Assembly (NCBI GenBank): GCA_964016885.1
Contig: OZ024743.1
Location: 360,778,001-360,842,000, forward strand
DNA from: Eledone cirrhosa
Lineage: Eukaryota
DNA: 64,000 bases
Direction of reading: 5' to 3'
The number at the start of each line of letters is the position of its first letter. The stretch's first letter is position 1. The position numbers were made by a program, and so were the translations under genes. The notes below the pieces were generated by a model. That model saw only the letters and a program-made list of their open reading frames with translations. It ran no database searches and was not told the origin of the DNA. Positions 343-32,221 of this stretch are shown here, in pieces.

Positions 343-583
343 GCTTTCTTTATTAACCAAAAGGATTTACATAAAGTAGACATTAAGGACAGTACAGGAC
401 AATACAGTCGGTACAAATGGGCATTACTGCGTGTAAAAAACAAGAAACAGAGGATGTAATAATGAAAAAATTCCCCAATAGGGGGGAGACCTCCGAGGGA
501 CATTCGTGGAGAAAGCCCATTAAAAAGCCACAGTGACCCTGACCACCAGGGCAAGTGCCCTCTCCCAGTTTTCCACCTTTAAT

Positions 584-3500
584 TTACAGACACATACTCA
601 GAGTAGGCCCATTTACTGGGGCCATTCTTGCCTCTCTCACCCATCTTTCAACAAAATGCTGGGAAGAGAACACTTCCCTTTCTACCCTGATTTTCCTTTT
701 TAAATGAAATCTGAAAAAGTTAATCAGGGCATCACCGAAGAGGTAAGTGCTCGTCTTCAGCCCTTTCAAACGTGTCCACCATACTATCTCTTTCGCCATG
801 GCCACCAGACAGATAAAAACTGCCTGCCCTTCCCGGCTAAAGGAAGAGGGCGGCGCAATCCTCACAATGGACTCAGCTGATAGCTGGATCCGTCCTACAC
901 GTGACAGCAGGTGTTCGACATAAACCCACAAGTCAGCAATGCTCGGACACTGGACGAGTGCGTGCAGGACGGTTTCGTCGCCATGCGCGCATCTCGGACA
1001 TGCCCGGCTGACGGCACCTCCATGCCTGTAGAGTTTATCCAGAACTGGCAAAGCTCCTCGGTAAAACTGCCAGACCAAGGATTTCTGGAAGTTGTCCATA
1101 GGCCCCGGCCCGAAATTTCTTCCGAAGTGATTGGCTAGTTGATTTTCGTCGACGCCTAGATTTTCTCCAAGTACGTCGTCGCTCTTCACTTCCACTAATC
1201 CTCTATAGAACGCCAAGGTGGAGTTTCCACCGATCACATTGCCCGATTGATCGAGGGCTGTGACCGCCTGAAGACATTCCAGTCTCCAAGCGCTCCCTCT
1301 CGGTCTTCGCTTGACCCAGGACTGCAGCTCCGTCAATGAAACGAGCTGGGGAAATATGTGTCTAGCAAACGGCGACCACACCTGATCACCGTCGGGGAAG
1401 AGGTGGAGATGTCGTAGCCTGAGCGCGTGTCTGCGCATCATCAGCCACGGCATTCCCAGCCCTCCACGTAGCGGGTGTTTACAGCGGATGGATCGCCTGA
1501 CCATCGGAGCGCGTCCCTTCCACAAAAAGTGAAAGAGCAAACGCTCCAGCGCAGTCAGGCGGGGCTTAGGACAAGGTACGACGGTCAGGCGGTAGTAGAT
1601 GACGGACGCGATATACGCGTTAGCCACCTCCGCTCGATCTTTCAGGGATAGCTTCCCTAGGCCCATTTATGGGTGAGAGAAGCTACCCTGCTCGTCACCT
1701 CGTCCCAGTTTTTTTTTTCCGTCTGGAGGTCCGGACCGAACCAGACCCCGAGCAATTTAACCGGTCCGTCCAGCGCCCGACGACGCTGTTGGACGGCATG
1801 GGCCTTCTTCTCCAGGTGCCTAGCTGCAGGCCCACTGACGTTTCCTGGTTGAACATTGCTCCTGTCACCGCTTCGTATTCTCTTAGTGTAGTTCCGATCG
1901 CCTTGATGTGTTTGGCGTTCGACACCACTACGGTGACATCGTCCGCATATGCTGACACGGATCTTCCGCATCCTATTTCGCGCGGGACCCCCTCAACGTC
2001 TCCAGTTTGTGCAGTAATGGCTCGAGAGTCAATACGTACAAGAGGGACGAGAGGGAACATGCTTGGCGGACCGAGCGCATGATGTTCAACGGTTCCGAAA
2101 GGTGACCGTTCACTCTCACCACAGAGCAGATGTCGCTGTGCATGGCAGCGATCCAGCCTCTGAAGACGGTCCCAAAGCCAGCCGCCCTCAGGACTGCCGC
2201 TAGGTAACGATGGTCGACCCTATTGAAAGCTTTCGACTGATCTAAATTTATCAACGACCCACCCATGCCAGGTTCCCTAGCTACCCTCTCTACGATGTAT
2301 ATCATGAGGTGGAGGTTGTCGTGGATGAATCTGTCGGGTATGGCGCATGTCTGCGCCTCTGCCACCAGACCATCAACGACAATCGCCAACCTCTTTGCTA
2401 GCACCCTGGCCAAAATCTTGAACTCTGTGTTTAGCAGAGTTATGGGCCTAAAATTATCTATGTTATCCCCCTTGTTCGGATACTTTTGTGCAGCGCCACA
2501 GCTCCTCGGCTCACAGAGCTGGGAATTGCCCCGTTCTGTTGCCAGTTGCAGTAGACGTCTACCAAGAGGCCTCCGAATAAGTCTGGCATCTGTACGTAAA
2601 GTTCATAGGGCAGACCATCCAAACCAGGCGATTTACTCCTTGTGCAGCTAGTCATTGCCTCCCGTACTTCAGCGGCTGTTATCGGCATTTCGCAACACTC
2701 CGCCTCAGTGGCCGAGAGCCGCGGCAGTCCGTCGAGGTAGACACTAAAGTCCATCCCTCGATCCGGCCCGCCGCTTCCCCCGGTCAACTGAGCGAAGTGT
2801 CGCTGAAAAGCTTCACACATTTTCCCGGGATCGAGTAGCATGTGCACGTCGTGGTCCACCAAAAACCGGATCGTGGCTTTGTTGCCACGACGCGCCTCCG
2901 CCACTCGGTCCCATTGAACCGCTTTCGTCCCCACGTGTCTGAGAGCACGCACCCTAGCTCTGACAACGCAGCCTTCGTGCTTTGCATTGAAGAATTGGTC
3001 AAGGGCCAATTTCGCCGCAAGTACTTCGGTCGCGATGCCTTTGCTAAGCGCCTCGTCTAATTTTCTAACTAATTCTCCCTCTGCTCTAATTTTCTCTATT
3101 GCTAAAGCCTTACTAAACCTAATGAACTCTATTCTAATTGCTCTTTTCAGAGCAAACCACCACTTGTTGTTGATGATGGCCCCCGTCAACGCCCGCTTAA
3201 CTAGTTCGCTAATCCGGTCTCTGTAGGCCTTGCGCGCTGGTAAGGACTTGTTTAGCTTCCAGTAGCCGGGTCCTCGTCTATGAAGCCTATCTAAGTCAAG
3301 CACACAGATCACGAATTTGTTATCCGTGTAGCTGACTATCTTAAATTGTGGACAGTCTATGCTAGACCTATCTATTTCTCTACAAAATACTCTATCTAGA
3401 TATGATCTGGATGACACTATGCGATTTGTCCAAGTCCACATTGGCACATTCGGGAAATACAATCGGTACCGGTCAGACAATTCAAAACGCCTGAGCAGGT

Positions 3501-4000
3501 TGGTGAGGCTCTTGCACCCTCCTCCCCTATCCGCTAATCCCACACTGTCCCAGCGTGCATCTAGGATCCCGTTCCAGTCGCCCACTAACACTAAAGAGCG
3601 GGACGTTCCAAGAAAGGTCTCTAGACGCCGGAAGAAATCAGGCCACCCTGCTCCTGTCGGAGCATAGACGGCCACTAGCCTGAAAGCTTGCCCGTCTCCG
3701 CTGGTCACGTCTAGCACCACCAACTTACCTTCTGGGTCCAGGAAGATGGCCCGTATGGCGAGATCCAAACCTCTCCGAAAAAGCACAGCAACTCCCCCCC
3801 CCCGACCCCCGAAGGCTGGGAGATGCGTACACATCGTATCCACCGAAGATCGGTGCGAAGGCCCGTGCTTCGGAGATTCTGGTTTCGCTGATGGCCACTA
3901 CATCTATGTTTAGTGACCTGAGGTCGTTGTGCAGGTGGCCCTGCTTCCATGACGACCCCAAGCCACGCGCATTTATGCTGCCTATCCTGAGTGAGGTCAT
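584..4000 (-). pseudogene. Tx1-like ORF2 (APE endonuclease, RT, C-terminal Cys/His motif), frameshifted
   Basis: ORF pieces 3725-4000, 2458-3843, 1973-2413, 1695-2060, 1657-1971 and 584-1666 carry SINARGL, VGDWN, SYLDRVF, KSPGLDGL, LDQSKAF, YADD and CPRC..ETVLHALVQC, collinear with the intact 1139-aa ORF. Confidence 0.93.
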
Positions 4001-4034
4001 GTTGAAATGGAGTGGAAAAAATGGGAAAGACCAC

Positions 4035-5982
4035 TTACCTTACTTCTCGTAGAGGAAGGATGCTTTGTCCATCCTTTTCACTGCTTGTGGCCTCCTCCGG
4101 AAGAATGTCCTTATACATCCTCCTGGAGAGTGTTTGTCGGAAGTCTCCGATGTCTTTGGGGAATTTTTGTTTTAGTGTCGTGTACGTTTTCTGTGTGATG
4201 CGTGTGATTTGTATGTGTGGAGGTGGTGTGAACTTTTGGGTTGTTGTGTAGTCTTTTTCTGTAATGCTGGTGTTGTGTTGTATGTAGTGTAATAATTGGT
4301 TGCTGTTCAAATTTAATGCTGTGTCGTGTGTATTGTTTTGGTTGTTTTGTTTTGTTTGCGTTTGTTGTGGGTTTGTTTCTGTTACGCTTTTTGGTGACTT
4401 TTGTGGTGTTGGTGATGGTGGTGTGGGGTTAATGATGGTGATAGTGTTGGTGTTTGTGGTGATGGGCTTGGTGATGCTGGTGTGGATGGTGACATATCTG
4501 TCCTAACTTTTTTCTTTGATAATTTATTTATTTCCCTCTGTATTTTGTTTTTGGAGGGGGAAGGAAGAGAATTTTTTTCTTTTTTGGTTTCATTTTTTCT
4601 CTTTTCCTGATACCGTTTCCCACTCCTCCTCGTCACAATCTGTCTCCAGTTGTGATAGGCCGGGGAGTGGAAAATCCTCCACAGGCGTTGGTTTTCGTTG
4701 TGGCGTGGTGGATGATGTAGGCGCTGGTGCTAGGTCTGGCGCGTTGGTTGGTGGTAGTGTTGGTTTTGGTTTTGCTACTGTTTCTGGGGTTGTTGCTGTT
4801 ACAGTTGCTTCTGTTGTTGCAGCTACAGATGTTGCTGCCATTTCTGCTGCAGGTGGTGGTGATGGTTGAGTCACTGGGGTGGGTAATAGAGGTGGCCTCA
4901 ACCTTTTAGCCTGAGGGCAGAAAGCCCTTAGGTGGGTTCCTTCACCACAAACGACACACCTAGGCCTTCTGCCCTCGACAATTACGGTGAGGTGGTTGCC
5001 GTCAGTGAGGTCTATTACCTCTGGGATCCTCCTCAATGCTTTTATGGTCCGCTTGGATCAGGAGCTCCATCCCAGATCCGGACTAGTTCTCATGCTTTTC
5101 TTTCGCTATTTCAATTACCTTGGTGTTGGCCTCGATGCCGGCGAGGACGGCAGACATTAGCCAGGGAATTTCGATGTCCGTTGGAACGTGGGTCACCCTG
5201 ATCTTCACAAGTCTCTGGCCACAATAGCTTGGGACGAGTGTGAAGTCGTCACTTCTTAATGGGGCCATGGAGTGTTCTCTGGCCTCCTGTTGTGTTTCAA
5301 AGAACACGTCTACGGTTCCATACTTCTGCCCACGTCTGATGTGGGGTTTTCTTGCCCACACATGTCCCAAAGCATTTTGGATTTAGGACTCGGATGCCCG
5401 TTCCACTCGGCGCGATTTTATGTTAATTGTCCGATAAGACACGGTGCATAGGCGCCGATGCTCCATTTTATTATTAGAGGCTGACCCTGTAACCATCCCT
5501 CTTTTCCATTTTTTTGGCTTCTTCTAATTCCTCCTGAGTTACCAGAAATGCTTCGCACTGTTTTGCTACTCTGGCAAAACTAAGGGTGGTTTTCTTAATT
5601 TCATTGTTGCTGTTGTTGTTATCGTTATTTTTGTTATTATTAATTTTAGTTTCAGTTGTGGTGTTGGTGGCGTCAGTGGTGTTCGGTGTGGAAGAGTACA
5701 TTTTGGTTGAATTCATTTCGATATCCCGAGTTAATTTATTTTTTCTTTTGTTTCTGTTGTCGCGGTGGTGGTGGGGGTGGGGGTTGTGACGGTGGTGGTG
5801 GTGGTGGCGGCTTTAACACCTGCAGTCATTGGTAATGACGGGAAATGAATATCTGCCTGAGACATATTTAAAATATTGCTACTGCTTATATTTTTAGTGT
5901 TGGCAAACATAGTAATATTTACAATGGTGGTGTCGGTGTGAGGTGTTAGTTTGTGAGGAAGGAGTGACTTTGAGTCATCCAT
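4035..5982 (-). pseudogene. Tx1-like ORF1 (RRM-like region + CCHC zinc knuckle), disrupted
   Basis: Fragments include KYGTVDVFFETQQEA and CVVCGEGTHLRAFC (CX2CX4HX4C), homologous to ORF1 at 14647-16746. Confidence 0.85.
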
Positions 5983-6196
5983 GATTTTTCAAATAAAAAT
6001 TTTTTGTTTGATAATTATAAAAGTTTAAATTTTGGGCTCAAGGCCTCAATCTTTTTGGGTGTCCTTTTCAGATAACAATGTATGTGCACTTATATACAGT
6101 TAACAATAACAATTTTCCATGAATGGCAATTTTAAATAACTGAAATAACAAACGTTTGCGGAGCTCACAATGATACGATTTACTACGTAGATCGCC

Positions 6197-6248: not shown

Positions 6249-7286
6249 GGGAAGAAGACGCACGAGGTGACGGAGGTCATGAAATCGCTCCCGTAAGTTT
6301 AGAATTTTTAACATATTTAAATCATTTGTGAAATAACAACTCTTAGTACAAATGCTACGTAAATCTTGAGCCCCAAAAAATTCGGACCCAAAATATATTG
6401 TTATAAGGCTCAAATATTCAAATATTCAACTTTGTATTGTACACTGTATATCCAAAAAAGAAAATGGCTATAAATGGAAGAAGAAACCCCCCTCCTCCTC
6501 TGTCTACACTATATAGAACAGCCAAACTCACCAACACAAGAAACTAGATACACCACCCACCCCATCACCTGTGTACACTAAACCACCACCGCTCACTACG
6601 GCCATCATTACAACCATTATCCCATCACCGCCGCCACCACCCCTTCACTCCTTCACTGCTACCTCCGCTACAGCACCATCACTACAGTAATACGGTCACA
6701 TCACCGCCACCACTGCCTCGGTATCGACATCACCACCACAACTGTCTCAGTATCGCTACCGCCGCCAGTCTCCCACTTCTTTCAGCTGGCTGCTGCCACC
6801 ACATTATAGAATCCCTGCTGCTAAAAAAGAGGAAGGCATCAAAATATATAGATAGACTCAAAAGAAAAAAGAAAAAACAAACAACAAAACCAAAGCAGCA
6901 CAGCAACAACAGCAAAAAACGAGAAAAACAAACAGAGAAAAACAAAAACAAAAAAAAAAAAACCCCCAAAACGTAAAGAAAATAAGAATGAAGAGAGAAG
7001 CAGGCGGACGGACAGAGAAGAGGGGGGAAAAACTAAAACTTAAAAAACAAAAACTAAGTCAGACATTCGAACACTACATTACAATGAAACTTATGCTTAT
7101 TCATTTTTGGGGCCCTTTCTGCCTGTGTGTTTGTTTGTTTATGTGTGTTCGTATACAGCGTGGTAATAATGCCACACAAGAGCCAAGTGGAATGGCGGAT
7201 CCACAGATGGATATGTAACCATACATTCGCCAATCCTCGATAAGAGTGTTTAAATATCGAACATAAACAGTTCGAATAACGGTGAA

Positions 7287-9340
7287 ATGGAGACTAGAAC
7301 GTCATGTGACAGACTCTCACCCAACAGGTGCCCCCTGGCTCAGCAGCAGGAACCTGACTGTCAACCAAATACTGCTGATGTTGGAGGAAGGAGAAGAAGG
7401 AAAGGGGCCAGAACCAACTGGACGAAAGAATTGAATAGAACTGTTATGCAATGTTACCTGAAAAGTAACCCCAAGGAGAGGGGCTACAGGAGACGGATGC
7501 ATAACATCTGGAACGAGATTGGTTTATTTAAATTAGATGAACAAAAATTGGCCGGGCAGGCTCGGGTAATAAGAACTAATGGATGGATAAGCGAGCTGGA
7601 ACTGGAGGAACTGAGCAGAGAGAATGGCTTGGAGATGGCGGGTGTAGTATGCTAGACAAGCGAGCCAGTGGGAAATGAAGGTGAAGAGGTCCTGAGAACG
7701 GAGGAACCAGCCGAAGCAGACAATGATCTGAATACTGAGATAAATAATACCTGGAACAGAGATACGGCCACTGAGGAGATGAATGCTGACGGGCTAGGAC
7801 AAGATTCGGTTGACATCCTAAATTTAGTGGTAGATGAATTGAACAATGATAGTGGGAGACCTATGAATCTAAGATTTGTAGACAGGAAAAAGTTAAAAGA
7901 AACAACAGCTAAGGTAAACAAAGTCATCCCATACCTTGAGGCGAGGAGCCTTCACCAGTGCAACAATATCCTCAAAGCAACAGCAAATACGGTGAGGAAA
8001 CTACTTGGTATAAAAGCGAGAGGAAACAACAGACAAGAAAGAGCAGAGCCGTGGTGGAAGAAGCGACTGAGTGGGCAAATCGGGGAAATGAGAAATGACA
8101 TAGGAAAGCTTGAGTCACTACTGAATGGGACACTAAAAAACATAGGCACTAAAAATAGACGGGAAATAAGATACAAAACTAGGAGGAAAAAGCTAAATAT
8201 TATCATAGAGGAACTGAAGCAACGCATTGTAGCAAAGAGTGCAAAAATCAGGCGATACGAGAACAGAGTCAGTCAGTATAAACATAACCGCATGTTCGAC
8301 AACAACCAGAAGATGCTGTTTGGACAGCTTGAGGGGAAAGAAAGAGGCAACGACTTGATCCCTGGGGCGGAGCAAACTAAAACATTCTGGAGAGGAATAT
8401 GGGAGCAGAATGTTAGACACAATGCCCAGGCAGGGTGGATTGAGACAGTGCGGAGGGAGATCGGTGAGCAGGCACAACAACAAACTGATTTGAGTATCAC
8501 AGTTGAAACTCTTAAGGGGCAGGCCAAAAAACTAACCAACTGGAAATCACCAGGCCCAGATAGTGTGCAGGGGTATTGGATTAAACATTTAACATCCCTC
8601 CACCCGAAGCTGACGGCCATGTTCAATGACTGCTTGGTGTCGGGTGAGGTGCCAGAGTGGTTGACAAAATGTACCACAGTTCTGATAATGAAAGACCGAA
8701 TCAAGGGTAATGATGTTACCAACTATAGACCTATCACATGTCTGTCCGTAATGTGGAAACTGTTGACGAGCATTGTGTCTGAGGAAATCTACCATCACCT
8801 CCACACAAACAACTTGTTACCGGACGAACAGAAAGGATGCCGAAAGAAGTCACGTGGTACAAAGGACCAGTTACATATTGATAAGATGGTAATGGGGAAT
8901 TGCAGGAGGAGACACACTGATCTTGCCATGGGATGGATAGACTACAGAAAGGCATTTGACATGGTGCCTCATTCCTGGATCACGAAAAGCCTGGAGATCT
9001 TCAGGGTGGCAGATAACATCAGACAGTTGCTAGGCAGGAGTATGGGGTCCTGGGAGACAGAGTTGACATCAACTGGAGTATCCTTGGGAAGCGTGAAGAT
9101 CAAGAGAGGTGTCTTCCAGGGAGATAGCCTGTCCCCTCTGTTGTTTGTCCTTGCCCTGATGCCCTTGACCATTATGCTGCGAAAACTGAGAGCAGGATAC
9201 AAGTTGGGAAGGGGAGAGCTTACCATCAATCACCTCCTCTTCATGGACGATCTTAAGCTCTTCGGGAAAAGTGAGAAGGAGTTGGATATTTATTTCAACA
9301 AACTTTCCAGTTAACTAACATCAATGACTGAGACTCAAAG

Positions 9341-9394
<54 letters not shown>

Positions 9395-10802
9395 GTGAGA
9401 AGGAGTTGGATGTGCTTGTTGACACTGTCCGTATTTTCAGCAGTGATATATGTATGCAGTTGGTATTGGTAAATGTGGAGTCATTGTGATGAAGAGGGGT
9501 AGGTTGAGCAGAAGTAACGGGATCCAGATACCAACAGGTGAGATGATAAAGGAAATTGACTCTGAGGAAGGATACAAGTATTTGGGCGTTCTGGAGGCTG
9601 ATGGCATAAAGAACAAAAAAATGAAGGAATTGTTAAGAACTGAATACATTCGGAGAGTAAGGAGCGTATTGAAGTCACATCTGAACAGCAGAAATGCCAT
9701 AAGCGCAGTAAATTCCCGAGCTGTGTCTATTATTAGGTACAGTGCGGGAATTCTGAGATGGAATGTTGCTGAACAAAAAGAAATGGATAGGAAGACTAGG
9801 AAGCTATTGACTATCTACAACATGTTCCACAAGAGGAGTGATGTCGATAGACTCTACCTAAGGAGATCTGAGGGTGGAAGAGGTCTTATCAGCATAGAGG
9901 ACTGTGTTCAGATGGAGAAAAACAACCTATACAAATACGTGACCTATAGTAAGGAGCCAATGCTCAGAACTGTACTGAAGGAGGGGACAGTAGGCCAGGG
10001 GATGTCCAAGGAGGAAATAACATCAAGGAGGAAGAGCAGCCTTAAGGGAAAATCCCTTCATAGTACCTTCTTTGAGAAAACTGAATTTAGAGATCCACAG
10101 ACATGGAACTGGTTGAGAAGAGGAGACCTCAAAAAGGCTACAGAAGGAATGCTAATGGCTGCGCAGGAGCAGGCCCTCAAAACGAAGTGGTTGAAGCACC
10201 ATATCTACAAGGAGGAGGCTAGCCCACTGTGCAGGATCTGTGGATTGAGAGAGGAGACTGTGGCTCACATTGTGTCCGAGTGTAAACACCTAGCCCAGAC
10301 CCACTATAAGGGCTGGAGACACGATGTGATGGGCAGGGTGATCCACTGGCACCTGTGCAAAGTAAACAATTTACCACATTCTGAGAAATGGTATGAGCAT
10401 AGGCCAGAGGCGGTGATGGAGAACAATCAGGTGAAGGTGCTGTGGGATTTTAGGATACAGACGGACAAAAAACTGGAACACAATAGACCTGACCTGGTGG
10501 TTGTGGACAAAGAAAAAAGATCGTGTCTGATTGTGGATGTGGCCTGCCCGTTCGACACGAGAGTGCAAGAGAAGGAGAGGGAGAAAATTAACCGATACCA
10601 GGACCTAAAGTGGGAGGTGAAAAGGATTTGGAACTGCCATGAAGTCAAAGTGATCCCGATTGTCATAGGCGCACTGGGGACTATCTCCAAAAGTTTCCAG
10701 GGATGGTTAAAGAAAATCGGCCCCTTCACGCTTTTTGGAACGCTTCAAAAGGCATGCTTGCTTGGAACAGCAAGAACCCTCCGATACGTCCTGAATATCT
10801 GA
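7287..10802 (+). pseudogene. Family A ORF with premature TAG (7653-7655) and nested insertion
   Basis: CAG>TAG relative to copy 2. A 104-bp insert plus 20-bp duplication after FMDDLKL shifts the frame. Confidence 0.92.
9288..9391 (+). mobile_element. Extremely 5'-truncated family-A-like insertion (53 nt of 3' UTR + AAT tail) with 20-bp TSD
   Basis: ACTTTCCAGTTAACTAACATCAATGACTGAGACTCAAAG matches the family A 3' UTR. AAAGTGAGAAGGAGTTGGAT occurs at 9268-9287 and 9392-9411 but only once in copies 2 and 3. Confidence 0.92.
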
Positions 10803-10876
10803 GGCTGCAGGTAGTGGCTTGATATTCAATCCAACGGACTTTCCAGTTAACCAACATCAATGACTGAGATTCAAAG

Positions 10877-10885
10877 AATAACAAC

Positions 10886-10927
<42 letters not shown>
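10877..10927. repeat. (AAT)n spacer at a tail-to-tail junction
   Basis: Direct reading. Confidence 0.95.
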
Positions 10928-10929
<2 letters not shown>

Positions 10930-11191
10930 TTTCTTTATTAACCACAAGGGTTTACATAAAGTAGACATTAAGGACAGTGCAGGACAATGCAGGACGGTAC
11001 AAATGGGCATTTCTGCGTGTAAAAAAAAACAAAAATAGAGGATGTAACAAAAATAACAATGAAAATAACAATGAAAAATTCCCCAATAGGGGGGAGACTT
11101 CGGAGGAACATTTGTGGAGAAAGCCCAGTAAAAAGCCACAATGACCCTGACCACCAAGGCAAGTGCCCTCTCCCAGTTTTCCACCTTTAGT

Positions 11192-14100
11192 TTACAGATA
11201 TATACTCAGAGTCGGCCCATTCACTCGGGCCATTCTTGCTTCTCTCACGCATCTTTCAACAAAATGCTGGGAAGAGAGCACTTCCTTCTCTACTCTGATT
11301 TTCCTTTTCAAATGAAATTTGAAAAAGTCAATCAGAGCATCACCGAAGAGGTAAGTGCTCGTCTTCAGCCCTTTCAAACGTGTCCACCATACTATCTCTT
11401 TCGCCATGGCCACCAGACAGATAAAAACTGCCTGCCCTTCCCGGCTAAAGGAGGAGGGCGGGGCAATCCTCACGATAGACTCAGATGATAGCTGGATCCG
11501 TCCTAAACGCGACAGCAGGTGTTCGACATAAACCCACAAGTCAGCAATTTTCGGGCACTGGACGAGTGCGTGCAGGACGGTTTCGTCGCCCTGCGCGCAT
11601 CTCGGACATGCCCGGCTGACGGCACCTCCATGCCTGTAGAGTTTATCCCGAACTGGCAAGGCTCCTCGGTAGCACTGCCAGGCCAGAGATTTCTGGAAGT
11701 TGTCCATAGGCCCTGGCCCGAAGGTTCTTCCGAAGAGATTGGCTAGTTGATTTTCGTCGACGCCTAGAGTTTCCCCAAGTACGTCGTCGCTCTTCCCCTC
11801 CACTAATCCTCTATAGAACGCCGAGGTGGAGTTTCCACCGATCACATTGCCCGATTGGTCGAGGGCTGTGAGCGCCTGAAGACATTCCAGTCTCCAGGCG
11901 CTCCCTCTCGGTCTTCGCTTGACCCAGGACTGCAGCTCCGTCAAGGAAACGAGCTGGGGAAAAACGCGTCTAGCAAACGGCGACCACACCTGATCACCGT
12001 CGAGGAAGAGGTGGAGATGTCGTAGCCTGAGCGCGTGCCTGCGCATCATCAGCCACGGCATGCCCAGCCCTCCACGTAGCGGGTGTTGACAACAGATGGA
12101 CCGCCTGACCATCGGAGCACGTCCCTTCCACAAAAAGCGAAAGAGCAAACGCTCCAGCGCAGTCAGGCGAGGCTTAGGACAAGGTACGACGGTTAGGCGG
12201 TAGCAGATGACAGACGCGATGTACGCGTTAGCCACCTCCGCTCGACCTTTCAGGGATAGCTTCCTCTCCGCCCATTTCTGGGTGAGAGAAGCCACCCTGC
12301 TCGTCACCTCGTCCCAGTTTTTGTCCGTCTGGAGGTCCGGACCGAACCAGACCCCTAGCAATTTAACCGGTCCGTCCGTCCAGCGCCCGACGACGCTGTT
12401 GGACGGCATGGACCTGCCTCTCCAGGTGCCGAGCTGCAGGCCCACTGACTTTTCCTGGTTGATCATTGCTCCTGTCACCGCTTCGTATTCTCTTAGTGTA
12501 GTGCCGATCGCCTCGATGTGTTTGGCGTTCGACACCACTACGGTGACATCGTCCGCATATGCTGACACGGATCTTCCGCATCCTAGTTCGCGCGGGACTC
12601 CCCTCAACGTCTCCAGTTTGTGCAGTAATGGCTCGAGAGTCAATACGTACAAGAGGGACGAGAGGGGACATCCTTGGCGGACCGAGCGCATGATGTTGAA
12701 CGGTTCCGACAGGTGACCGTTCACTCTCACCACAGAGCAGATGTCGCTGTGCATGGCAGCGATCCAGCCTCTGAAGACGGGCCCAAAGCCAGCCGCCCTC
12801 AGGACTGCCGCTAGGTAACGATGGTCGACCCTATCGAAAGCTTTCGACTGATCTAAATTGATCAAGGACCCACCCGTGCCAGGTTCCCTAGCTACCCTCT
12901 CTACGATGTATCGCATGAGGTGGAGGTTGTCGTGGATGGATCTGTCGGGAATGGCGCATGTCTGCGCCTCTCCCACCAGACCACCAACGACAAGCGCCAA
13001 CCTCTTTGCTAGCACCTTGGCCAAAATCTTAAACTCTGTGTTTAGCAGAGTTATGGGCCGGAAATTGTCTATGTTATCCCCCTTGTTCGGATCCTTTCTC
13101 AGCAGTGCCACCGCTCCTCGGCTCACAGAACTGGGAATTCTCCCGTTCTGTTGCCAGTTGCAGTAGACGTCCGCCAAGAGGCCTCCGAACAAGTCTGGCA
13201 TCTGTACGTAAAGTTCATAGGGCAGACCATCCAAACCAGGCGATTTACCCCTTGTGCAGCCAGTCATTGCCTCCCTTACTTCAGCGGCTGTTATCGGCTT
13301 TTCGCAACACTTCGCCTCAGTGGCCGAGAGCCGCGGCAGTCCGTCGAGGTAGACACTAAAGTCCATCCCTCTACCCGGCCCCCCGCTGCCCCCGAACAGC
13401 TGAGCGAAGTGTCGCTGAAAAGCTTCACACATTTGCCCGGGATCGAGTAGCATGCGCCCGTCGTGGTCCACCAAAGACCGGATCGTGGCTTTGTTGCCAC
13501 GACGCGCCTCCGCCACTCGGGCCCATTGAACGGCTTTCGTCCCCTCGTGTCTGAGAGCACGCACCCTAGCTCTGACAACGCAGCCTTCGTGCTTTGCATT
13601 GAAGAATTGGTCAAGGGCCAATTTCGCCGCAAGCACGTCGGTCGCAATGCCTTTGCTAAGCGCCTCGTCTAATTTTCTAACTAGTTCTCCCTCTGCTCTA
13701 TTTTTCTCTATTGCTAAAGCCTTACTAAACCTAATCGATTCTATTCTAATCGCTCTTTTCAGAGCAAACCACCACTTGTTGTTGACGATGGCCCCCGTCA
13801 ACGCCCGCTTAACTAGTTCGCTAATCCGGTCTCTGTAGGCCTTGCGCGCTGGTAAGGACGCGTTTAGCTTCCAGTAGCCGGGTCCTCGTCTATGAAGCCT
13901 ATCTAAGTCAAGCACACAGATCACGAATTTGTGGTCCGTGTAGCTGACTATCTTGAATTGTGGACAGCCTATGCTAGACCTATCTATTTCCCTACAAAAT
14001 ACTCTATCTAGATATGATCTGGATGACCCTATGCGGTTTGTCCAAGTCCACATTGGCACATTCGGGAAATCCAATCGGTACCTGTCAGACAGTTCAAAAC

Positions 14101-14611
14101 GCCTGAGCAGGTTGGTGAGGCTCTTGCACCCTCCACCCCTATCCGCTAATCCCACACAGTCCCAGCGTGCATCTAAGATCCCGTTCCAGTCGCCCACTAA
14201 CACTAAAGAGCGCGACGTTCCAAGAAAGGTCTCCAGACGCCGGAAGAAATCAGGCCGCCCTGCTCCTGTCGGGGCATAGACGGCCACTAGCCTGAAAGCT
14301 TGCCCGTCTCCGCTGGTCACGTCCAGCACCACCAGCTTACCCTCTGGGTCCAGGAAGATGGCCCGTATGGCGAGATCCAAACCTCTCCGAAAAAGCACAG
14401 CAACTCCTCCACCCGATCCAGGACGGCTGGGAGATGCGTACACATCGTAGCCGCCGAAGATCGGTGCGAAGGCCCGTGCTTCGGAGATTCTGGTCTCGCT
14501 GATGGCCACTACATCTATGTTTAGTGACCTGAGGTCGTTGAGCAGGTGACCCTGCTTCCATGACGACCCCAAGCCACGCGCATTTATGCTGCCTATTCTG
14601 AGTGAGGTCAT
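11192..14611 (-). CDS. Tx1-like ORF2p, 1139 aa: APE endonuclease + reverse transcriptase + C-terminal zinc-binding motif
   Basis: APE: SINARGL, ISETR, VYAP, VGDWN, SYLDRVF, TDHKFV. RT: NFRPITLLN, LDQSKAFDRVDH, VRQGCPLS, YADD. Then CPRC..ETVLHALVQC. Confidence 0.96.
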   Translation of the reverse strand: MTSLRIGSINARGLGSSWKQGHLLNDLRSLNIDVVAISETRISEARAFAPIFGGYDVYASPSRPGSGGGVAVLFRRGLDLAIRAIFLDPEGKLVVLDVTSGDGQAFRLVAVYAPTGAGRPDFFRRLETFLGTSRSLVLVGDWNGILDARWDCVGLADRGGGCKSLTNLLRRFELSDRYRLDFPNVPMWTWTNRIGSSRSYLDRVFCREIDRSSIGCPQFKIVSYTDHKFVICVLDLDRLHRRGPGYWKLNASLPARKAYRDRISELVKRALTGAIVNNKWWFALKRAIRIESIRFSKALAIEKNRAEGELVRKLDEALSKGIATDVLAAKLALDQFFNAKHEGCVVRARVRALRHEGTKAVQWARVAEARRGNKATIRSLVDHDGRMLLDPGQMCEAFQRHFAQLFGGSGGPGRGMDFSVYLDGLPRLSATEAKCCEKPITAAEVREAMTGCTRGKSPGLDGLPYELYVQMPDLFGGLLADVYCNWQQNGRIPSSVSRGAVALLRKDPNKGDNIDNFRPITLLNTEFKILAKVLAKRLALVVGGLVGEAQTCAIPDRSIHDNLHLMRYIVERVAREPGTGGSLINLDQSKAFDRVDHRYLAAVLRAAGFGPVFRGWIAAMHSDICSVVRVNGHLSEPFNIMRSVRQGCPLSSLLYVLTLEPLLHKLETLRGVPRELGCGRSVSAYADDVTVVVSNAKHIEAIGTTLREYEAVTGAMINQEKSVGLQLGTWRGRSMPSNSVVGRWTDGPVKLLGVWFGPDLQTDKNWDEVTSRVASLTQKWAERKLSLKGRAEVANAYIASVICYRLTVVPCPKPRLTALERLLFRFLWKGRAPMVRRSICCQHPLRGGLGMPWLMMRRHALRLRHLHLFLDGDQVWSPFARRVFPQLVSLTELQSWVKRRPRGSAWRLECLQALTALDQSGNVIGGNSTSAFYRGLVEGKSDDVLGETLGVDENQLANLFGRTFGPGPMDNFQKSLAWQCYRGALPVRDKLYRHGGAVSRACPRCAQGDETVLHALVQCPKIADLWVYVEHLLSRLGRIQLSSESIVRIAPPSSFSREGQAVFICLVAMAKEIVWWTRLKGLKTSTYLFGDALIDFFKFHLKRKIRVEKEVLSSQHFVERCVREARMARVNGPTLSIYL

Positions 14612-14646
14612 GTTTAAAATAGAGTGGAAAAGATGGGAAAGACCAC

Positions 14647-16746
14647 TTACCGTATTTTTGGTAGAGGAGGGATGGTTTTTACATCCCTTTTCACTTGATC
14701 GTCTGGTGAAGGGACCGTTGAATCGTCCCTTCGGCTGGTCGTCGGCTCTTCTAAGAGAATGTCTGAATATACTCTTCGATTAATGGTTCCTCCTAGGTCC
14801 CTGAAATCACCAACTGCGTTGGGGAATTTCGTTTTAATGTTTGTGTATTGTTTCTGTGCTATTTTTAGCAGTCTTATGTTAGTTGGCGTTTTGATTGGTG
14901 CTGGTATTATGTAGTCCTGTTGTGAAATGTCTGTGTGTTCAATTATGTAAGTCATTAGTTTCTTGTTGTGTGTGTTTATTGCCGTGCATTTGTTTTTCTG
15001 GGGGTGGGGTGTGGTTCTGCTATTTTCTTGTCGTTGTTGCTGGGTGTGTGTGTTTTGTTGTTGTGTTTGCGATGTTGGTGCTTGTGGTGGTGGTGTTGAA
15101 GGTGTTGTTGGCGGTGGGGTTGTCGCCGGTGGTGATGGTGGTGCTGGTGTGGGTGGTGATGGTGTTGGTGGTGTTGCTGCTGTGGGTCTCTTTGCAGTAG
15201 ACTTTACCCTTTTCTCATTTCTTTCCTCCCTTTTCAAAGGCGACGATGCGCTGCTTCTGCGTTTGTGCCTTCTTGAGACCTTTTGCCATCCCTCTCCCAC
15301 CTCACACTCCATGTCTGATTCTGTAAGGTCGGGGAGGGGTACCAGCTCCACTCTTTCACTTGTTGTTGTTGGTGATGTTTGCACTGGAGTCTCTGTTGCA
15401 GCTGCATTTGGTATTGCTGTTGTTGTTGTTAATATTTCCACTGCTGCTGCTGTCTTTGATTTCCGTGGAGTGGGTATGGGTGCCACGGACCTATCGTTCC
15501 TGGTTGCCGCTTGTCCTGTTGCTGGTAGCCGTGGAACCGGATTCGGGAGGAGGGGGGTTTTCTCCTTTCTCAGGGTCTTCTCGTTGCAGAAGGCCCTGAG
15601 GTGAGTCTTCGATCCACAGCGAAAGCATTTCGGGCGTTTGCCCTCAACACTTATGGGCAGTTGAGTGCCGTTATCGAAGTCTATCACATCCGGGATAGCT
15701 TCGATGCACTCCTGGTTGGTTTGGATTAGCATCTCAATGGAGGAGCCGACCCAATCTTCTCTTACTTTTTTCTGTACTTGCAGTACAGTTGTTTTGTCCT
15801 CGATTCCGACGAGGACAGACGCGGCCAGCCAAGAAGGGGTCATTCCGGGGGGGACGTGGGTCAGTTTGACCCTCACAATTTTTTGCCCGCAGTAGGAGGG
15901 CACCAACACCATTTCCTCGCTCCTTAGGGTCACTACTGATTGGGCCTTTGCCTCCTGGGGTGTGGCAAAAAGTACGTCTACGGTGGCGTATTTTTTGCCT
16001 CGGGTGATGTGCGTTTTCCTCTGCCACACAGACCCCAAGGCTTTTTGTATTTGGGCCTCTGTGGCTCTTTCCACCCTACGGGATTTTGTACTTACTGTAC
16101 GGTACGTGACCGTACAGTGCTCTTGGGTTTCGAAAAAATTTTTCGCTGCCTTGCAGATTGCTCGGTGTCCGTTCTTTGTCACCATCTTCTTCGCTTCCTC
16201 TAATTCCTCATTTGTTATGAGGATTGTTTCCAGGTTTTTCGCAATACCTGCAAATGAGATTGGTTTTTCTCTGCTGTTGTTGTTGTCGTCAGAGCTGCTG
16301 GTACTTTTGTTGTTGCTGCAGGTACTACGACTACTGCCTCCGCCGCTGTTGCTGTGGTTGTTGTTGGTGTTGCTGCTGCTAATGCTGTTGTTGTTTATGC
16401 TGCTGGTGATGCTGTTGCGGCTGCTACTGTTGTTTTCATTGTCACTGTTGCTGTTGTTATTACGGCTGCTACTGCTATTATTCCTGACGTCAGACGAATG
16501 AACTGGGTTTTCGTATTTCCCGCACACCTGTTTCGTCGCTGTCGTCGTCGTCGTGGAGAAACCTTGCACGCTTTGCACGAGACTTTTCTTTTCTTTCGTC
16601 GCTTGCGAAAGAGAAGGTAGGGAGAGAGACACATTTAAAGAAGGGAGGGAGAGAGACAATCTTCTCTCTCCTGTAGTGATGATTGAGGAAGAAGAAGACG
16701 GAATGAGTGGGAGTGACGTATGAAATTTTTTTTTTTTGGTAGCCAT
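14647..16746 (-). CDS. Tx1-like ORF1p: low-complexity N-terminus, RRM-like region, CCHC knuckle, Pro/Thr-rich tail
   Basis: First ATG at 16746 (frame open from 16779). Contains CFRCGSKTHLRAFC and lies directly upstream of ORF2. Confidence 0.9.
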   Translation of the reverse strand: MATKKKKFHTSLPLIPSSSSSIITTGERRLSLSLPSLNVSLSLPSLSQATKEKKSLVQSVQGFSTTTTTATKQVCGKYENPVHSSDVRNNSSSSRNNNSNSDNENNSSSRNSITSSINNNSISSSNTNNNHSNSGGGSSRSTCSNNKSTSSSDDNNNSREKPISFAGIAKNLETILITNEELEEAKKMVTKNGHRAICKAAKNFFETQEHCTVTYRTVSTKSRRVERATEAQIQKALGSVWQRKTHITRGKKYATVDVLFATPQEAKAQSVVTLRSEEMVLVPSYCGQKIVRVKLTHVPPGMTPSWLAASVLVGIEDKTTVLQVQKKVREDWVGSSIEMLIQTNQECIEAIPDVIDFDNGTQLPISVEGKRPKCFRCGSKTHLRAFCNEKTLRKEKTPLLPNPVPRLPATGQAATRNDRSVAPIPTPRKSKTAAAVEILTTTTAIPNAAATETPVQTSPTTTSERVELVPLPDLTESDMECEVGEGWQKVSRRHKRRSSASSPLKREERNEKRVKSTAKRPTAATPPTPSPPTPAPPSPPATTPPPTTPSTPPPQAPTSQTQQQNTHTQQQRQENSRTTPHPQKNKCTAINTHNKKLMTYIIEHTDISQQDYIIPAPIKTPTNIRLLKIAQKQYTNIKTKFPNAVGDFRDLGGTINRRVYSDILLEEPTTSRRDDSTVPSPDDQVKRDVKTIPPLPKIR

Positions 16747-16959
16747 GTTTTTTTGTTTAAAATGAAATTTTGGGTACAAAACCCCAATAACTGGCTATTT
16801 AACCCCGAAGGGCCAAATAACGGACAGAAAGACCCCTCTCACGAGGAGGAGGGTGTCTTTATCAACAATTTGGTTCAAGTTTTAAACAATTTACAATTGT
16901 TTTAACGGTTAAAAATTACTATACCTTACAGAGCCGAGCCTCCGTCAACCATGGCATTC

Positions 16960-17007: not shown

Positions 17008-20000
17008 AAAAAAAAAAATAAAATGGCTATAAATGGAATAAGAAGAACCCCCCCTCCTCTCCTCTGGCTACACTATATAGGACAGCTAAACTCACCAACA
17101 CCAGAAACTAGATACACCACCCACCCCACCATCTGTGTACACTAAACACAACAGCATTTTCACCTTCACCGCCACCGCTCACTACGGCCATCATTACCAC
17201 CACTATCCCATCACCGCCGCCACCACCCCTTGACTCCTTCACTGCTGCTGCCACCGCTACAGCACCATCACTACAGTAATACGGTCGCATCACCGCCACC
17301 ACTGCCTCGGTATCGACATCACCACCACCCCTGTCTCAGTATCGTCAACGCCGCCAGTCTCTGCTGGCTGCCACTTCCACATTATAGAATTCCTACTACT
17401 AAAAAAGAGGAAGGCATCAAAATATATAGATAGACTCAAAAGAAAAAAGAAAAAACAAACAACAAAACCACAGCAGCACAGCAACAACAGCAAAAAACGA
17501 GAAAAACAAACAGAGAAAAACAAAAACAAAAAAAGAAACCCCAAAAACGTAAAGAAAATAAGAATGAAGAGAGAAGCAGGCGGACGGACAGAGAAGAAGA
17601 GGGGGGAAAAAGTAAAACTTAAAAAACAAAAACTAAGTCAGACATTCGAATACTACATTACAATGAAACTTATGCTTATTCATTTTTGGGGCCCTTTCTG
17701 CCCGTGTGTTTGTTTGTTTATGTGTGTCCGTATACAGCGTGGTGATAATGCCACACAAGGGCCAAGTGGGATGGCGGATCCACAGATGGCTATGTAAACA
17801 TACATTCGCCAATCCTCGATAAGAGTGTTTAAATATCGAACATAAACAGTTCGAATAACGGTGAAATGGAGACTAGAACGTCATGTGACAGACTCTCACC
17901 CAACAGGTGCCCCCTGGCTCAGCAGCAGGAACCTGACTGTCAACCAAATACTGCTGATGTTGGAGGAAGAAGAAGAAGGAAAGGGGCCAGAACCAACTGG
18001 ACGAAAGAATTGAATAGAACTGTTATGCAATGCTACCTGAAAAGTAACCCCAAGGAGAGGGGCTACAGGAGACGGATGCATAACATCTGGAACGAGATTG
18101 GTTTATTTAAATTAGATGAACAAAAATTGGCCGGGCAGGCTCGGGTAATAAGAACTAATGGGTGGATAAGCGAGCTGGAACTGGAGGAACTGAGCAGAGA
18201 GAATGGCTTGGAGATGGCGGGTGTAGTATGCCAGACAAGCGAGCCGGCGGGAAATGAAGGTGAGGAGGTCCTGAGAACGGAGGAACCACCCGAAGCAGAC
18301 AATGATCTGAATACTGAGATAAATAATACCTGGAACAGAGATACGGCCACTGAGGAGATGAATGCTGACGGGCTAGGACAAGATTCGGTTGACATCCTAA
18401 ATTTAGTGGTAGATGAGTTGAACAATGATAGTGGGAGACCTATGAACCTAAGATTTGTAGACAGGAAAAAGTTAAAAGAAACAACAGCTAAGGTAAACAA
18501 AGTCATCCCATACCTTGAGGCGAGGAGTCTTCACCAGTGCAACAATATCCTCAAAGCAACAGCAAATACGGTGAGGAAACTACTTGGTATAAAAGCGAGA
18601 GGAAACAACAGACAAGAAAGAGCAGAGCTGTGGTGGAAGAAGCGACTGAGTGGGCAAATCGGGGAAATGAGAAATGACATAGGAAAGCTTGAGTCACTAC
18701 TGAAGGGGACACTAAAAAACATAGGCACTAAAAATAGACTGGAAATAAAATACAAAACTAGGAGTAAAAAGCTAAATATTATCATAGAGGAATTGAAGCA
18801 ACGCATTGTAGCAAAGAGTGCCAAAATCAGGCGATACGAGAACAGAGTCAGTCAGTATAAACAGAACCGCATGTTCGACAACAACCAGAAGATGCTGTTT
18901 GGACAGCTTGAGGGGAAAGAAAGAGGCAACGACTTGATCCCTGGGGCGGAACAAGCTAAAACATTCTGGAGAGGAATATGGGAGCAGGATGTTAGACACA
19001 ATGCCCAGGCAGGGTGGATTGAGACAGTACAGAGGGAGATCGGTGAGCAGGCACAACAACAGACTGATTTGAGTATCACAGTTGAAACTCTTAAGGGGCA
19101 AGCCAAAAAACTAACCAACTGGAAATCACCAGGCCCAGATGGTATGCAGGGGTATTGGATTAAACATTTAACATCCCTCCACCCGAAGCTGACGGCCATG
19201 TTCAATGACTGCTTGGTGTCGGGTGAGGTGCCAGAGTGGTTGACAAAAGGTACCACAGTTCTGATAATGAAAGACCGAATCAAGGGTAATAATGTTACCA
19301 ACTATAGACCTATCACATGTCTGCCCGTAATGTGGAAACTGTTGACGAGCATTGTGTCTGAGGAAGTCTGCCATCACCTCCACACAAACAACTTGTTGCC
19401 GGACGAACAGAAAGGATGCCGAAAGAAGTCACGTGGTACAAAGGACCAGTTGCTTATTGATAAGATGGTAATGGGGAATTGCAGGAGGAGACACACTGAT
19501 CTTGCCATGGGATGGATAGACTACAGAAAGGCATTTGACATGGTGCCTCATTCCTGGATCACCAAAAGCCTGGAGATCTTCAGGGTGGCAGATAACATCA
19601 GACAGTTGCTGGGCAGGAGTATGGGGTCCTGGGAGACAGAGTTGACATCAACTGGAGTATCCTTGGGAAGCGTGAAGATCAAGAGAGGTATCTTCCAGGG
19701 AGATAGCCTGTCCCCTCTGTTGTTTGTCCTTGCCCTGATGCCCTTGACCATTATGCTGCGAAAAGTGAGAGCAGGATACAAGTTGGGAAGGGGAGAGCTT
19801 ACCATCAATCACCTCCTCTTCATGGACGATCTTAAGCTCTTCGGGAAAAGTGAGAAGGAGTTGGATGTGCTTGTTGACACTGTCCGTATTTTCAGCAGTG
19901 ATATATGTATGCAGTTTGGTATTGGTAAATGTGGAGTCATTGTGATGAGGAGGGGTAGGTTGAGCAGAAGTAACGGGATCCAGATACCAACAGGTGAGAT

Positions 20001-21344: not shown

Positions 21345-21416
<72 letters not shown>

Positions 21417-21473
21417 AAGAAGAAGAAGAAGAAGAAGAAGAAGAAGAAGAAGAAGAAGAAGAAGAAGAAGAAG
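21333..21473. repeat. Compound microsatellite (AAT)n(AAG)n
   Basis: Direct reading. Confidence 0.95.
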
Positions 21474-22385
21474 AACTGCTACAGAAACTGGCTAAGAAAT
21501 GGCAAGAAAAGCCTATGTATGGAAAATACCCAGAGCGAGCTAACAATCCTGATGTGGACAAAACTTTAACCCATCAGTGGGTGGCATCCTGTGGACTGCA
21601 ATCGGAGACTGAAGGACTGATTATATCAGCACAAGATCAGTGTCTGCCAACAAAAAATTACCAAGCCAACATAATAAAAAATGGATGCAGCCCATTATGC
21701 CGTGTATGCAAAAAACAACCAGAGACCATTGACCATATAATTTCAATGTGCAGTCCTATAGCTCCAACCGAATACCTAAACAGGCATGACAGAGCTGCAC
21801 AATACATACATTGGATAATGTGTAAGCATTTTGACCTGCCCCATCAAAAGAATTGGTGGGAGCATCAACCACCTCCCATACTTGAGAAAGATCACATCTC
21901 AATCTTGTGGAACTATAGCATCCAAACAGACCGAAAAATAGATGCAAATAGACCTGATATAATATTGAAGGACTTTCAAAGGAGGGTATGCCTGCTAACT
22001 GATATGTCTGTTCCAATAGACAAGAATGTATCTATAAAAACATTTTAAAAATTGAGCAAGTATAAGGACCTGGAGATAGAAATTGGAAAAATGTGGAAAT
22101 TGAGAACTAAAACAATACCAGTGGTTGTAGGCGCTCTGGGAATGATACCTAAGGGGTCTAATGATTACTTATCGCAAATCCCAGAAAACCCGCGTATAGG
22201 AGAAATACAAAAGATAGTACTAATGGGAACTGCCCATATACTAAGGAAGATTCTGTCAATATAAGTACATCACAAGTCTAAACACTAAAGATGCATGTGT
22301 GAGTATGTATGTTCTTTCTTGAACATGGCGGACCTTGTTGTCTCTTGAGGTCACTGGTTGTGAACATAAAGCAAGATAAATGCAA
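21471..22385 (+). mobile_element. R4/Dong-type family B, 5'-truncated copy (zinc knuckle + RLE region), disrupted
   Basis: Near-identical to ~26423-27356, with GAA>TAA at 22046-22048 and a ~20-bp deletion in the 3' UTR. The 5' junction has AAGAA microhomology with (AAG)n. Confidence 0.93.
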
Positions 22386-23270
22386 CTGTAATAATAATAA
22401 AAATAATAATAATAATAATAAGTTTTTGATTTTTAACATATTTAAATCAATTGTGAAATAACAAGTCTTTTTACAAATGATGCATAAACCACCGAATCAA
22501 GTCTCATAAAATTTCGGAGCCATATTATATTGTTATATCGCTCAAATATTCAATTTTGTATTCAAACAAGAAAATGGTTATAAATGGAAGAAAACACCCT
22601 CTGTCTACACTATATAGAACAGTCAAATAACAGCAATTTCACCAACACCAGAAACTTGATACACCACCTACCCCATCACACTAAATATAACAGCCAGATA
22701 ACGGCAATTTCACCACCACCACCACCAAACCCAGCATAATAATAATAATAATTACTATTATTATTTTCTCAAGTTTTAACAAAATGTTTAATTCCAATTT
22801 TACGTGAATATGTCAACACAATATATATTAAACATACGCGACACAAACGCATAGATACTACAGATCAAACAAAACTAGTTTATTTAACACATATATTAAA
22901 CATACGCGACACAAACTCATAGATACTACATATCACAAAACACTGTAACGACAACGCCACCGCCGCCACCACTCCATCCATCATTGCTACCACTATCCCA
23001 TCACCGCCACCGCCACACCTTCATTGCTACCACCACTATTTCCCTGTTAACTTAAGAAAGTGGGAAGGTGGCGGTATCACTAGACAAGGGAGAGGCTAGC
23101 AAAAGATATAATAGATTGACTTAGTGACACGGCCACCGGCCAAACGTCATCAACTATGGCACTGCAGGCTCCCCCTTCCTCACCAACAATATAAAAAGCC
23201 CCAGCACCACCACCGACATAGCCAACAACAATAACAGGCAACTTCAGCAAAAAGTATATTATATTATTGT

Positions 23271-32147: not shown

Positions 32148-32221
32148 GGCTGCAGGTAGTGGCTTGATATTCAATCCAACGGACTTTCTAGTTAACCAAC
32201 ATCAATGACTGAGATTCAAGG

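What the first reader, a model, noticed from the sequence alone, without database searches (positions are those of the whole stretch)
9268..9411. A mini-copy inserted into its own family's RT gene and brought a new (AAT)n tract to a non-AAT site
Seen: 53 nt of family-A-like 3' UTR plus ~17 AAT units sit just after the FMDD motif, flanked by a perfect 20-bp TSD. The empty site in copies 2 and 3 has no AAT repeat. The insert differs at several positions from the three local 3' UTRs, and its 5' junction shows GAT microhomology. Inference: the tail is supplied by the element (read-through RNA or RT slippage), so off-target events seed new target microsatellites. The event also exposes a ~20-nt cleavage stagger that is invisible inside repeats.
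Basis: partly seen in the sequence, partly recalled or inferred. Interest (0 to 1): 0.74.

Follow-up and report, generated by a model that had tools for sequence, protein, structure and literature searches.

The report
Retrotransposon fragment plants new AAT repeat
A tiny piece of a jumping gene that normally lands in AAT repeats landed inside a related copy and left a new AAT repeat where there was none, a small twist on how jumping genes are known to create repeats.

Summary
A 124-bp insertion (53 nt of 3' UTR, 17 AAT units, an exact 20-bp duplication) interrupts the RT gene of a Dong/R4-like retrotransposon with a restriction-like endonuclease; two sister copies show an AAT-free empty site. 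The tract lies between the duplicated sites, so it is new there. Corrections: the donor is a sister variant (7-9 of 53 differences; a contig in another run matches it more closely); overlaps at both junctions make the stagger 15-20 nt. Best reading: 5'-truncated off-target target-primed insertion by Dong-type machinery (0.72). The event sits in a 32-kb nest of seven LINE copies in AAT tracts; a split (AAG)n tract suggests a second seeding event (inference). Generality is not shown: in a distant relative, tails run from 0 to 15 units and 0 of 20 non-AAT copies had a duplication over 8 bp. Tail seeding is published for RTE, CR1 and L1/Alu, and ~20-bp duplications for other restriction-like-endonuclease elements; one paper says Dong only uses existing repeats. 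No genome or reads of this individual were available. Modest variant of a known process.

The parts
9268..9287 (+). Left copy of the 20-bp target-site duplication; its last 3 nt (GAT) also match the element's 3' UTR
9288..9340 (+). 53-nt 3'-UTR fragment of a family-A sister variant (7-9 differences from local copies); same orientation as the host
   Evidence: closer match in run X4, record 16
9308..9330 (+). Predicted 6-bp hairpin near the 3' end, intact in insert and A copies; not significant against shuffles on its own
   Evidence: z about 0; a similar motif in 19 of 32 AAT-tailed relatives, motif chosen after seeing them
9341..9391 (+). New (AAT)17 tract with one ACT unit
9392..9411 (+). 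Right copy of the duplication; its first 2 nt (AA) continue the tail phase
6249..10876 (+). Host copy A1: single-ORF LINE (Myb-like N-terminus, RT, CCHC knuckle, PD-(D/E)xK-type endonuclease); also broken by a stop at 7653-7655 and a 1-bp deletion near 9459
10877..10927 (+). A1 tail / AAT tract, starts AAT AAC AAC
17010..21332 (+). Copy A2 (5'-truncated in the UTR, open ORF); empty site at 19847-19866
27377..32221 (+). Copy A3 (323-bp duplication in the 5' region, 1-bp deletion near 29101); empty site at 30736-30755
10928..16959 (-). Family B copy 2: two-ORF LINE with AP endonuclease, L1-like, sitting in the AAT tract in the opposite orientation
343..6196 (-). Family B copy 1 (broken; 5' part only about 65% like B2)
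21387..21475 (+). (AAG)30 tract; left part of a possibly split AAG tract
21468..22388 (+). 5'-truncated family C copy (97.8% like C), joined to the AAG tract by a 5-nt overlap and followed by an AAT tract
23566..27216 (+). Family C ORF, second restriction-like-endonuclease LINE, 35% amino-acid identity to A
32222..32380 (+). A3 tail (AAT)21 followed by (AAG)19(AAC)14; right end of the nest

Best explanation
An RNA of a family-A sister variant (a full LINE or a non-autonomous partner with the same 3' end), bound by a Dong/R4-type protein, was inserted off-target by target-primed reverse transcription. The restriction-like endonuclease nicked the T-rich lower strand in the A-run at 9267-9270. 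The freed TT end paired with the AA of the RNA's AAU tail and primed cDNA synthesis through the tail (copied from read-through RNA, perhaps lengthened by slippage) and 53-56 nt of 3' UTR. The upper strand was cut 15-20 nt downstream, its end annealed to the cDNA through GAT, and fill-in made the duplication. The result is a fresh AAT tract, which is this family's own target. Shown: the anatomy, the AAT-free empty site, the donor's divergence. Inferred: which protein cut, the priming details, the source of tail length, and later use of the tract as a target.
For: Element 3' end exactly at the tail, 5' truncation, duplication and overlaps at both junctions. Host family is a single-ORF RT closest to R2 among solved structures, with CCHC and PD-(D/E)xK-type motifs and a Myb/SANT-like N-terminal model (best Z 5.8, a weak score). 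The primer strand is T-rich, as in A's normal AAT sites and opposite to family B, whose tail reads ATT. Donor divergence exceeds decay (P about 1e-4); a 78-nt contig of run X4 at depth 18.8 differs at 1 position over 9292-9332, where A1 differs at 5, and an RT variant with 10 differences in 145 nt is in the same run. All three A tails share an AAC at unit 2, so the proximal tail travels with the element. 32 of 55 relatives' 3' ends with enough flank carry 3 or more AAT units. In family G001, 12 of 38 ends belong to pieces under 150 nt and 6 of 20 copies with non-AAT 5' flanks carry 4-15 tail units. Duplications of about 20 bp are published for other such endonucleases: reptile Utopia 20 bp (PMC4640811), young EhSINE1 mostly 18-24 bp (PMC2996970).
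Against: One event. No listed contig spans either junction; the tool skipped 9333-9401, showed 19 piece rows with 1740 hidden, and the runs are not this individual. The site looks little like AAT (at most 9 of 20). In G001 the longest junction match among 20 non-AAT copies was 8 nt (in an AT-rich minisatellite) and 7 nt (L099); a 15-unit tail (L110) had no duplication; L114 and L117 follow AAT tracts yet carry no AAT tail. In 45 ends of other relatives no unique duplication of 11 nt or more flanked an element, though most contigs lack the 5' flank. The donor's upstream sequence was not seen.
Confidence: 0.72

Rival explanations
1. Only a few AAT units came with the element; the tract grew to 17 units afterwards by replication slippage. 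This is compatible with the best explanation and changes only the size of the seed.
For: Tracts of the nest are mostly 17-22 units whatever their history, as if length were set after insertion. Tails of G001 copies are often 0-5 units. The ACT unit at position 5 could mark the end of the inherited part.
Against: The two target copies are identical at 20 of 20 and the host has only 80 private substitutions in 4268 columns, so time for growth was limited; very short perfect tracts slip slowly (PMC3812793 passage on thresholds).
Confidence: 0.25
2. The A-type RNA was mobilised in trans by an AP-endonuclease LINE (local family B, or an RTE elsewhere in the genome), so the 20-bp duplication says nothing about the restriction-like endonuclease.
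For: B is present and young in the same nest. The nick lies in a T-run, as L1-type enzymes prefer (recalled). An RTE with a 20-bp duplication and a repeat tail is published (PMC2887409).
Against: B's tail polarity implies an A-rich primer strand, the opposite of this site. The insert keeps the A-type 3' hairpin and tail. Cross-clade use of a stringent 3' end is uncommon (general knowledge, not tested).
Confidence: 0.1
3. DNA repair copied a genomic A' 3' end plus its AAT tract into a staggered break (templated insertion with tandem duplication), with no RNA step.
For: Overlaps of 3 and 2 nt at the two junctions are also typical of microhomology-mediated repair (general knowledge). Long duplications were not seen in the relative.
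Against: No template within the window: the four matches to the UTR core are the insert and the three A copies. The piece ends exactly at the element's natural 3' end with a clean duplication and no deletion.
Confidence: 0.1
4. Assembly artefact: a chimera of two family members.
For: No listed contig from three laid runs shows the junctions; the locus is a nest of 98-99% identical repeats.
Against: A chimera would not be expected to make an exact 20-bp duplication around a variant absent from the window; those runs lack this copy's private words altogether (best share 0.57 against 0.65 shared words).
Confidence: 0.04

Closest known systems
Dong (R4 clade) TAA-targeting non-LTR retrotransposons of silkworm, mosquito, snail, ostracod
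   Same: Single ORF with RT and restriction-like endonuclease, Myb/SANT-like N-terminus without zinc fingers, insertion into (TAA)n (PMC7998251, PMC3812793 passages; here).
   Different: PMC2887409 states that Dong uses pre-existing repeats and would not add SSRs; here a Dong-type 3' end has added one between duplicated target sites. No named Dong sequence was available for a tree.
Microsatellite seeding by RTE, CR1 and L1/Alu tails
   Same: Truncated 3' ends deliver a repeat between two target copies; same argument that the repeat did not exist there before (PMC2887409, PMC3157835, PMC3812793 passages).
   Different: Those elements use AP endonucleases and do not target the repeat they seed; here the seeded repeat is the family's own target, allowing feedback.
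EhSINE1/EhLINE1 of Entamoeba; reptile Utopia
   Same: Restriction-like endonuclease with duplications near 20 bp (22-bp example; 18-24 bp in young copies; 20 bp).
   Different: Not microsatellite-targeted. Placement of EhLINE in the R4 clade and the 13-bp duplication of Ascaris R4 are recalled, not seen in a call.
Drosophila I factor (TAA tail) and eel UnaL2 (slippage on a repeat tail)
   Same: Repeat tail used for priming and lengthened by slippage (PMC3747384 passage).
   Different: AP-endonuclease clades without repeat targeting.

Membership tests
R4/Dong clade | Single ORF with non-LTR RT | tested here: met
   A2 has one 1141-codon frame with RVT_1, E 4e-22; best solved relatives are R2 proteins, E 2e-28, ahead of L1, E 1e-13.
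R4/Dong clade | C-terminal CCHC knuckle and PD-(D/E)xK restriction-like endonuclease, no AP endonuclease | tested here: met
   Motifs read in the translation and invariant or nearly so in 38 aligned proteins; no Exo_endo_phos hit in A, unlike B. The motif definition is recalled.
R4/Dong clade | Divergent Myb/SANT-like N-terminal domain without zinc fingers (PMC7998251) | tested here: inconclusive
   Four-helix model, pLDDT 78; many top structural matches are Myb/SANT-type (GT-1, Zeste, ISWI, TRF, DMAP1) but best Z is 5.8; no Myb hit in Pfam or PDB by sequence.
R4/Dong clade | Insertion into (TAA)n repeats | tested here: met
   All three A copies have AAT tracts on both sides; 16 of 38 G001 ends have AAT at the 5' flank.
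R4/Dong clade | RT tree groups it with named Dong/R4 elements | not tested
   No named reference came back: 1 of 9 clusters looked up carried a name, an unnamed beetle protein.
R4/Dong clade | HDV-like self-cleaving ribozyme at the 5' end (PMC3774820) | tested here: inconclusive
   No ribozyme family in Rfam at E <= 1 over 1-33000; a descriptor written from memory found nothing here or in 9 relatives and had no positive control.
Target-primed retrotransposition product | Intact 3' end with tail, 5' truncation, target-site duplication, empty site known | tested here: met
Local family A lineage (A1-A3) | Divergence no greater than the host copy's own decay | tested here: not met
   7-9 of 53 differences against about 1 expected: sister variant.
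SINE or internal-deletion partner of family A | Non-coding head upstream of an A-type 3' end | not testable with these tools
   The insert holds only the last 53 nt; no genome is held and the UTR pattern found 0 matches in metagenome contigs.

The most novel reading that the evidence does not exclude
AAT-targeting Dong-type LINEs routinely make their own landing pads: each off-target insertion plants an AAT tract that later draws further elements of several clades, so nests such as this 32-kb array, and much of the genome's AAT content, are nucleated by the elements rather than found by them; the family's endonuclease cuts with a fixed stagger near 20 nt. The split (AAG)30 ... (AAG)19 around the C-fragment/C/A3 block would be a nest grown from such a seed.
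Probability: 0.25. Interest if true: 0.6.

Novelty: new variant of a known kind. Interest (0 to 1): 0.38.

Why it matters
For microsatellite-targeting retrotransposons the tail, the target and the duplication cannot be told apart inside the repeat. This event separates them: it gives a cleavage stagger (15-20 nt) and shows that the repeat can arrive with the element. If common, it overturns the stated view that Dong-type elements only exploit existing repeats, explains nests of LINEs in AAT tracts by positive feedback, and gives a direct genome-wide test. As a single event with mixed support from a relative, it is a useful data point rather than a discovery.

Tried and rejected
Run search: 24 rows, 20 hold part of the stretch, 7 hold half or more of its words, best 0.57; no RNA holder listed. 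The raw-read run X24 laid 0 reads, which is no test. UTR pattern scan of metagenome contigs: 0 matches. Earlier findings: nothing in 3 look-ups. Protein atlas: only generic RT clusters. Rfam: two sub-threshold hits, chance. Folding of the 3' UTR is not better than shuffles. Pfam and PDB sequence searches for the N-terminal domain gave no Myb hit. Rejected as second off-target examples: L003 (tail joined to its own 5' region at a contig end), L086 (head-to-tail array, not a duplication), L101 (27-nt match is a tandem duplication of mini-pieces), L125 and L131 (minisatellite flanks). L020 (tail joined to its own reversed 3' UTR at an A-run) may be a library chimera and is left as a lead. Six of the 20 non-AAT G001 rows share one 5' boundary, so their true 5' ends were not seen and they are not valid tests. 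The G001 search scored 40 of 67 candidates. 3' transduction of the AAG tract and a pre-existing AAG-AAT-AAG tract were considered for the split AAG and not excluded.

Full report
Observation. The window holds an exact 20-bp direct repeat at 9268-9287 and 9392-9411. Between the two lie 53 nt resembling the 3' UTR of the host family and 17 AAT units with one ACT unit. The two other family copies lack exactly 124 bp here, and their empty site matches AAT phases at only 7, 9 and 4 of 20 positions. Only 2 non-simple exact 20-mers recur within 300 bp in the whole window, so chance is not a concern. Both junctions overlap the target: GAT at the 5' side and AA at the 3' side. The duplication therefore fixes the stagger at 15-20 nt; it is 20 if both overlaps were target overhangs used for pairing, which is the usual model (inference).

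Host and setting. Family A is a single-ORF LINE with RT, closest to R2 proteins among solved structures, with CCHC and PD-(D/E)xK-type motifs conserved in 38 aligned proteins. Its N-terminal domain models as four helices and resembles Myb/SANT folds weakly (best Z 5.8). This fits the description of R4/Dong elements, which target (TAA)n (PMC7998251 passages; PMC3812793 passage); no tree with named members was possible. The stretch 311-32380 is a nest of seven LINE copies separated by AAT tracts: two AP-endonuclease L1-like copies on the minus strand, three A copies, and a fragment plus a full ORF of a second restriction-like family C, 35% identical to A. Of 14 perfect runs of four or more AAT in the window, 13 lie in this nest. 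Host A1 is also broken by a stop and a 1-bp deletion, with 21 silent and 21 amino-acid-changing private codons.

Donor. The insert differs from A1, A2 and A3 at 7, 8 and 9 of 53 positions, where about 1 is expected from A1's private rate of 80 in 4268 columns (P about 1e-4). Laying contigs of three runs on 9130-9560 at 85% likeness showed A-type 3' ends joined to A-type coding sequence, and in run X4 a 78-nt contig at depth 18.8 with 1 difference over 9292-9332, where A1 has 5; an RT variant with 10 differences in 145 nt occurs in the same run. So an insert-like variant exists elsewhere at a depth near that of the A-type contigs (26-27); that it is multi-copy is inferred. No listed contig spans a junction, but the tool skipped 9333-9401, showed 19 piece rows with 1740 hidden and 12 loose-end rows with 69 hidden, and the best run holds 0.57 of the words against 0.65 shared with A2/A3, so these runs do not carry this copy.

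Mechanism. The anatomy is that of target-primed reverse transcription with early 5' truncation. The primer strand is T-rich, as at A's normal sites and unlike family B, whose tail reads ATT in its own sense. The insert keeps a small 3' hairpin that is not significant alone but resembles a motif found in 19 of 32 AAT-tailed relatives against 3.2% in shuffles; the motif was chosen after seeing those sequences and some are kin. All three A tails have AAC at unit 2, so at least the first units are inherited. Whether the 17 units came from read-through RNA, RT slippage or later growth cannot be told here.

A possible second case. The block C-fragment, C, A3 is flanked by (AAG)30 on the left and (AAG)19(AAC)14 on the right, and the C fragment joins the left tract by a 5-nt overlap. 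The simplest history is one AAT-AAG-AAC tract whose AAG part received the C fragment; its AAT tail then received C and A3. This is inference; 3' transduction or a pre-existing mixed tract would also do.

Relatives. Scans gave 91 loci. Of 58 3' ends, 55 had enough flank: 32 with three or more AAT units, 4 ATT, 3 poly(A), 16 none. In 45 ends no unique duplication of 11 nt or more flanked an element, though most contigs stop at the 5' end. Handle G001, a bacterial MAG whose contigs hold many such LINE copies (host DNA, by inference), gave 45 matches of a family 44% identical to A. Of 48 ends, 38 had both flanks: 16 with AAT upstream, 2 tandem, 20 other; 12 of 38 were pieces under 150 nt, so mini-copies are ordinary. 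Six of the 20 carry 4-15 tail units, which supports element-borne tails. Against generality: the longest junction match among the 20 was 8 nt (3 of 380 mismatched pairs reached 7, none 8), six of the 20 are not valid tests, L110 has 15 units and no duplication, and L114 and L117 follow AAT tracts yet carry no AAT tail.

What is known. Seeding of repeats by LINE tails is published for RTE (PMC2887409), CR1 (PMC3157835) and L1/Alu (PMC3812793). Duplications near 20 bp are published for restriction-like endonucleases: Utopia of reptiles (PMC4640811) and EhSINE1 (PMC1635306, PMC2996970). PMC2887409 says that Dong and TRAS insert into existing repeats and so would not add to them; this event is a small counter-example if the attribution holds. 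Of all these papers, and of PMC5678591, PMC3774820, PMC3747384, PMC5389967 and PMC7650587, I saw search listings and term-matched passages only, no whole texts and no supplements. Nine searches listed no paper on off-target Dong copies with tail and duplication, but I saw Kojima and Fujiwara 2004, Xiong and Eickbush 1993 and Burke 1995 only as reference entries, Shivram 2011 is not held, and Repbase reports were not searchable, so the point may be in print.

Verdict. Real feature; most likely an off-target, 5'-truncated insertion from a sister variant by Dong-type machinery (0.72). New variant of a known kind; interest 0.38.

Noticed in passing
window 311-32380: Nest of seven LINE copies of three families (two restriction-like, one AP-endonuclease in opposite orientation) separated by AAT tracts; 13 of the window's 14 perfect (AAT)4+ runs are here.
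   Followed up: partly
window 21387-32380: (AAG)30 and (AAG)19(AAC)14 bracket the C-fragment/C/A3 block; possibly a nest grown from an AAT tail seeded into an AAG tract.
   Followed up: partly
window 343-6196 and 10928-16959: L1-like AP-endonuclease family B appears to target the same AAT/ATT repeat from the other strand; clade (Tx1-like by recollection) not tested. B1 and B2 are 94% alike in ORF2 but about 65% in the 5' part.
   Followed up: partly
window 22419-23023: Region upstream of the C ORF is 73-86% like family A's 5' region although the proteins are 35% identical: a shared or exchanged 5' UTR, or an older A-like fragment.
   Followed up: no
window 9268-9460: The 124-bp insert and a 1-bp deletion about 48 bp downstream sum to a multiple of three, but stops lie inside the insert; probably coincidence. 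The deletion is absent from laid contigs and could be an assembly error.
   Followed up: partly
window 9515 (run X1 contig): One contig joins an AAT tract to the RT sequence at this position through TAA: a truncated copy in an AAT tract or another tailed insert in another copy.
   Followed up: no
window 27539-28182: 323-bp tandem duplication in the 5' region of A3.
   Followed up: no
window 46832-50070: A further degenerate restriction-like-endonuclease LINE without an AAT tail.
   Followed up: no
L020 3700-3815: AAT tail joined at an A-run to the reversed 3' end of its own family; a second self-insertion or a library chimera.
   Followed up: partly
L129, L130, L132-L135 (G001): Six copies about 80% like the LINE's last 400-450 nt share one 5' boundary and a common upstream stretch: possibly a SINE-like partner family.
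   Followed up: no
L083-L087, L080-L082: Several bacterial MAG records contain animal-type LINE arrays, suggesting host contamination of the bins.
   Followed up: no
window 8900-9800: Seven runs under four organism codes hold half or more of family A's words, so near-identical copies occur in several samples; close species or horizontal spread not examined.
   Followed up: no
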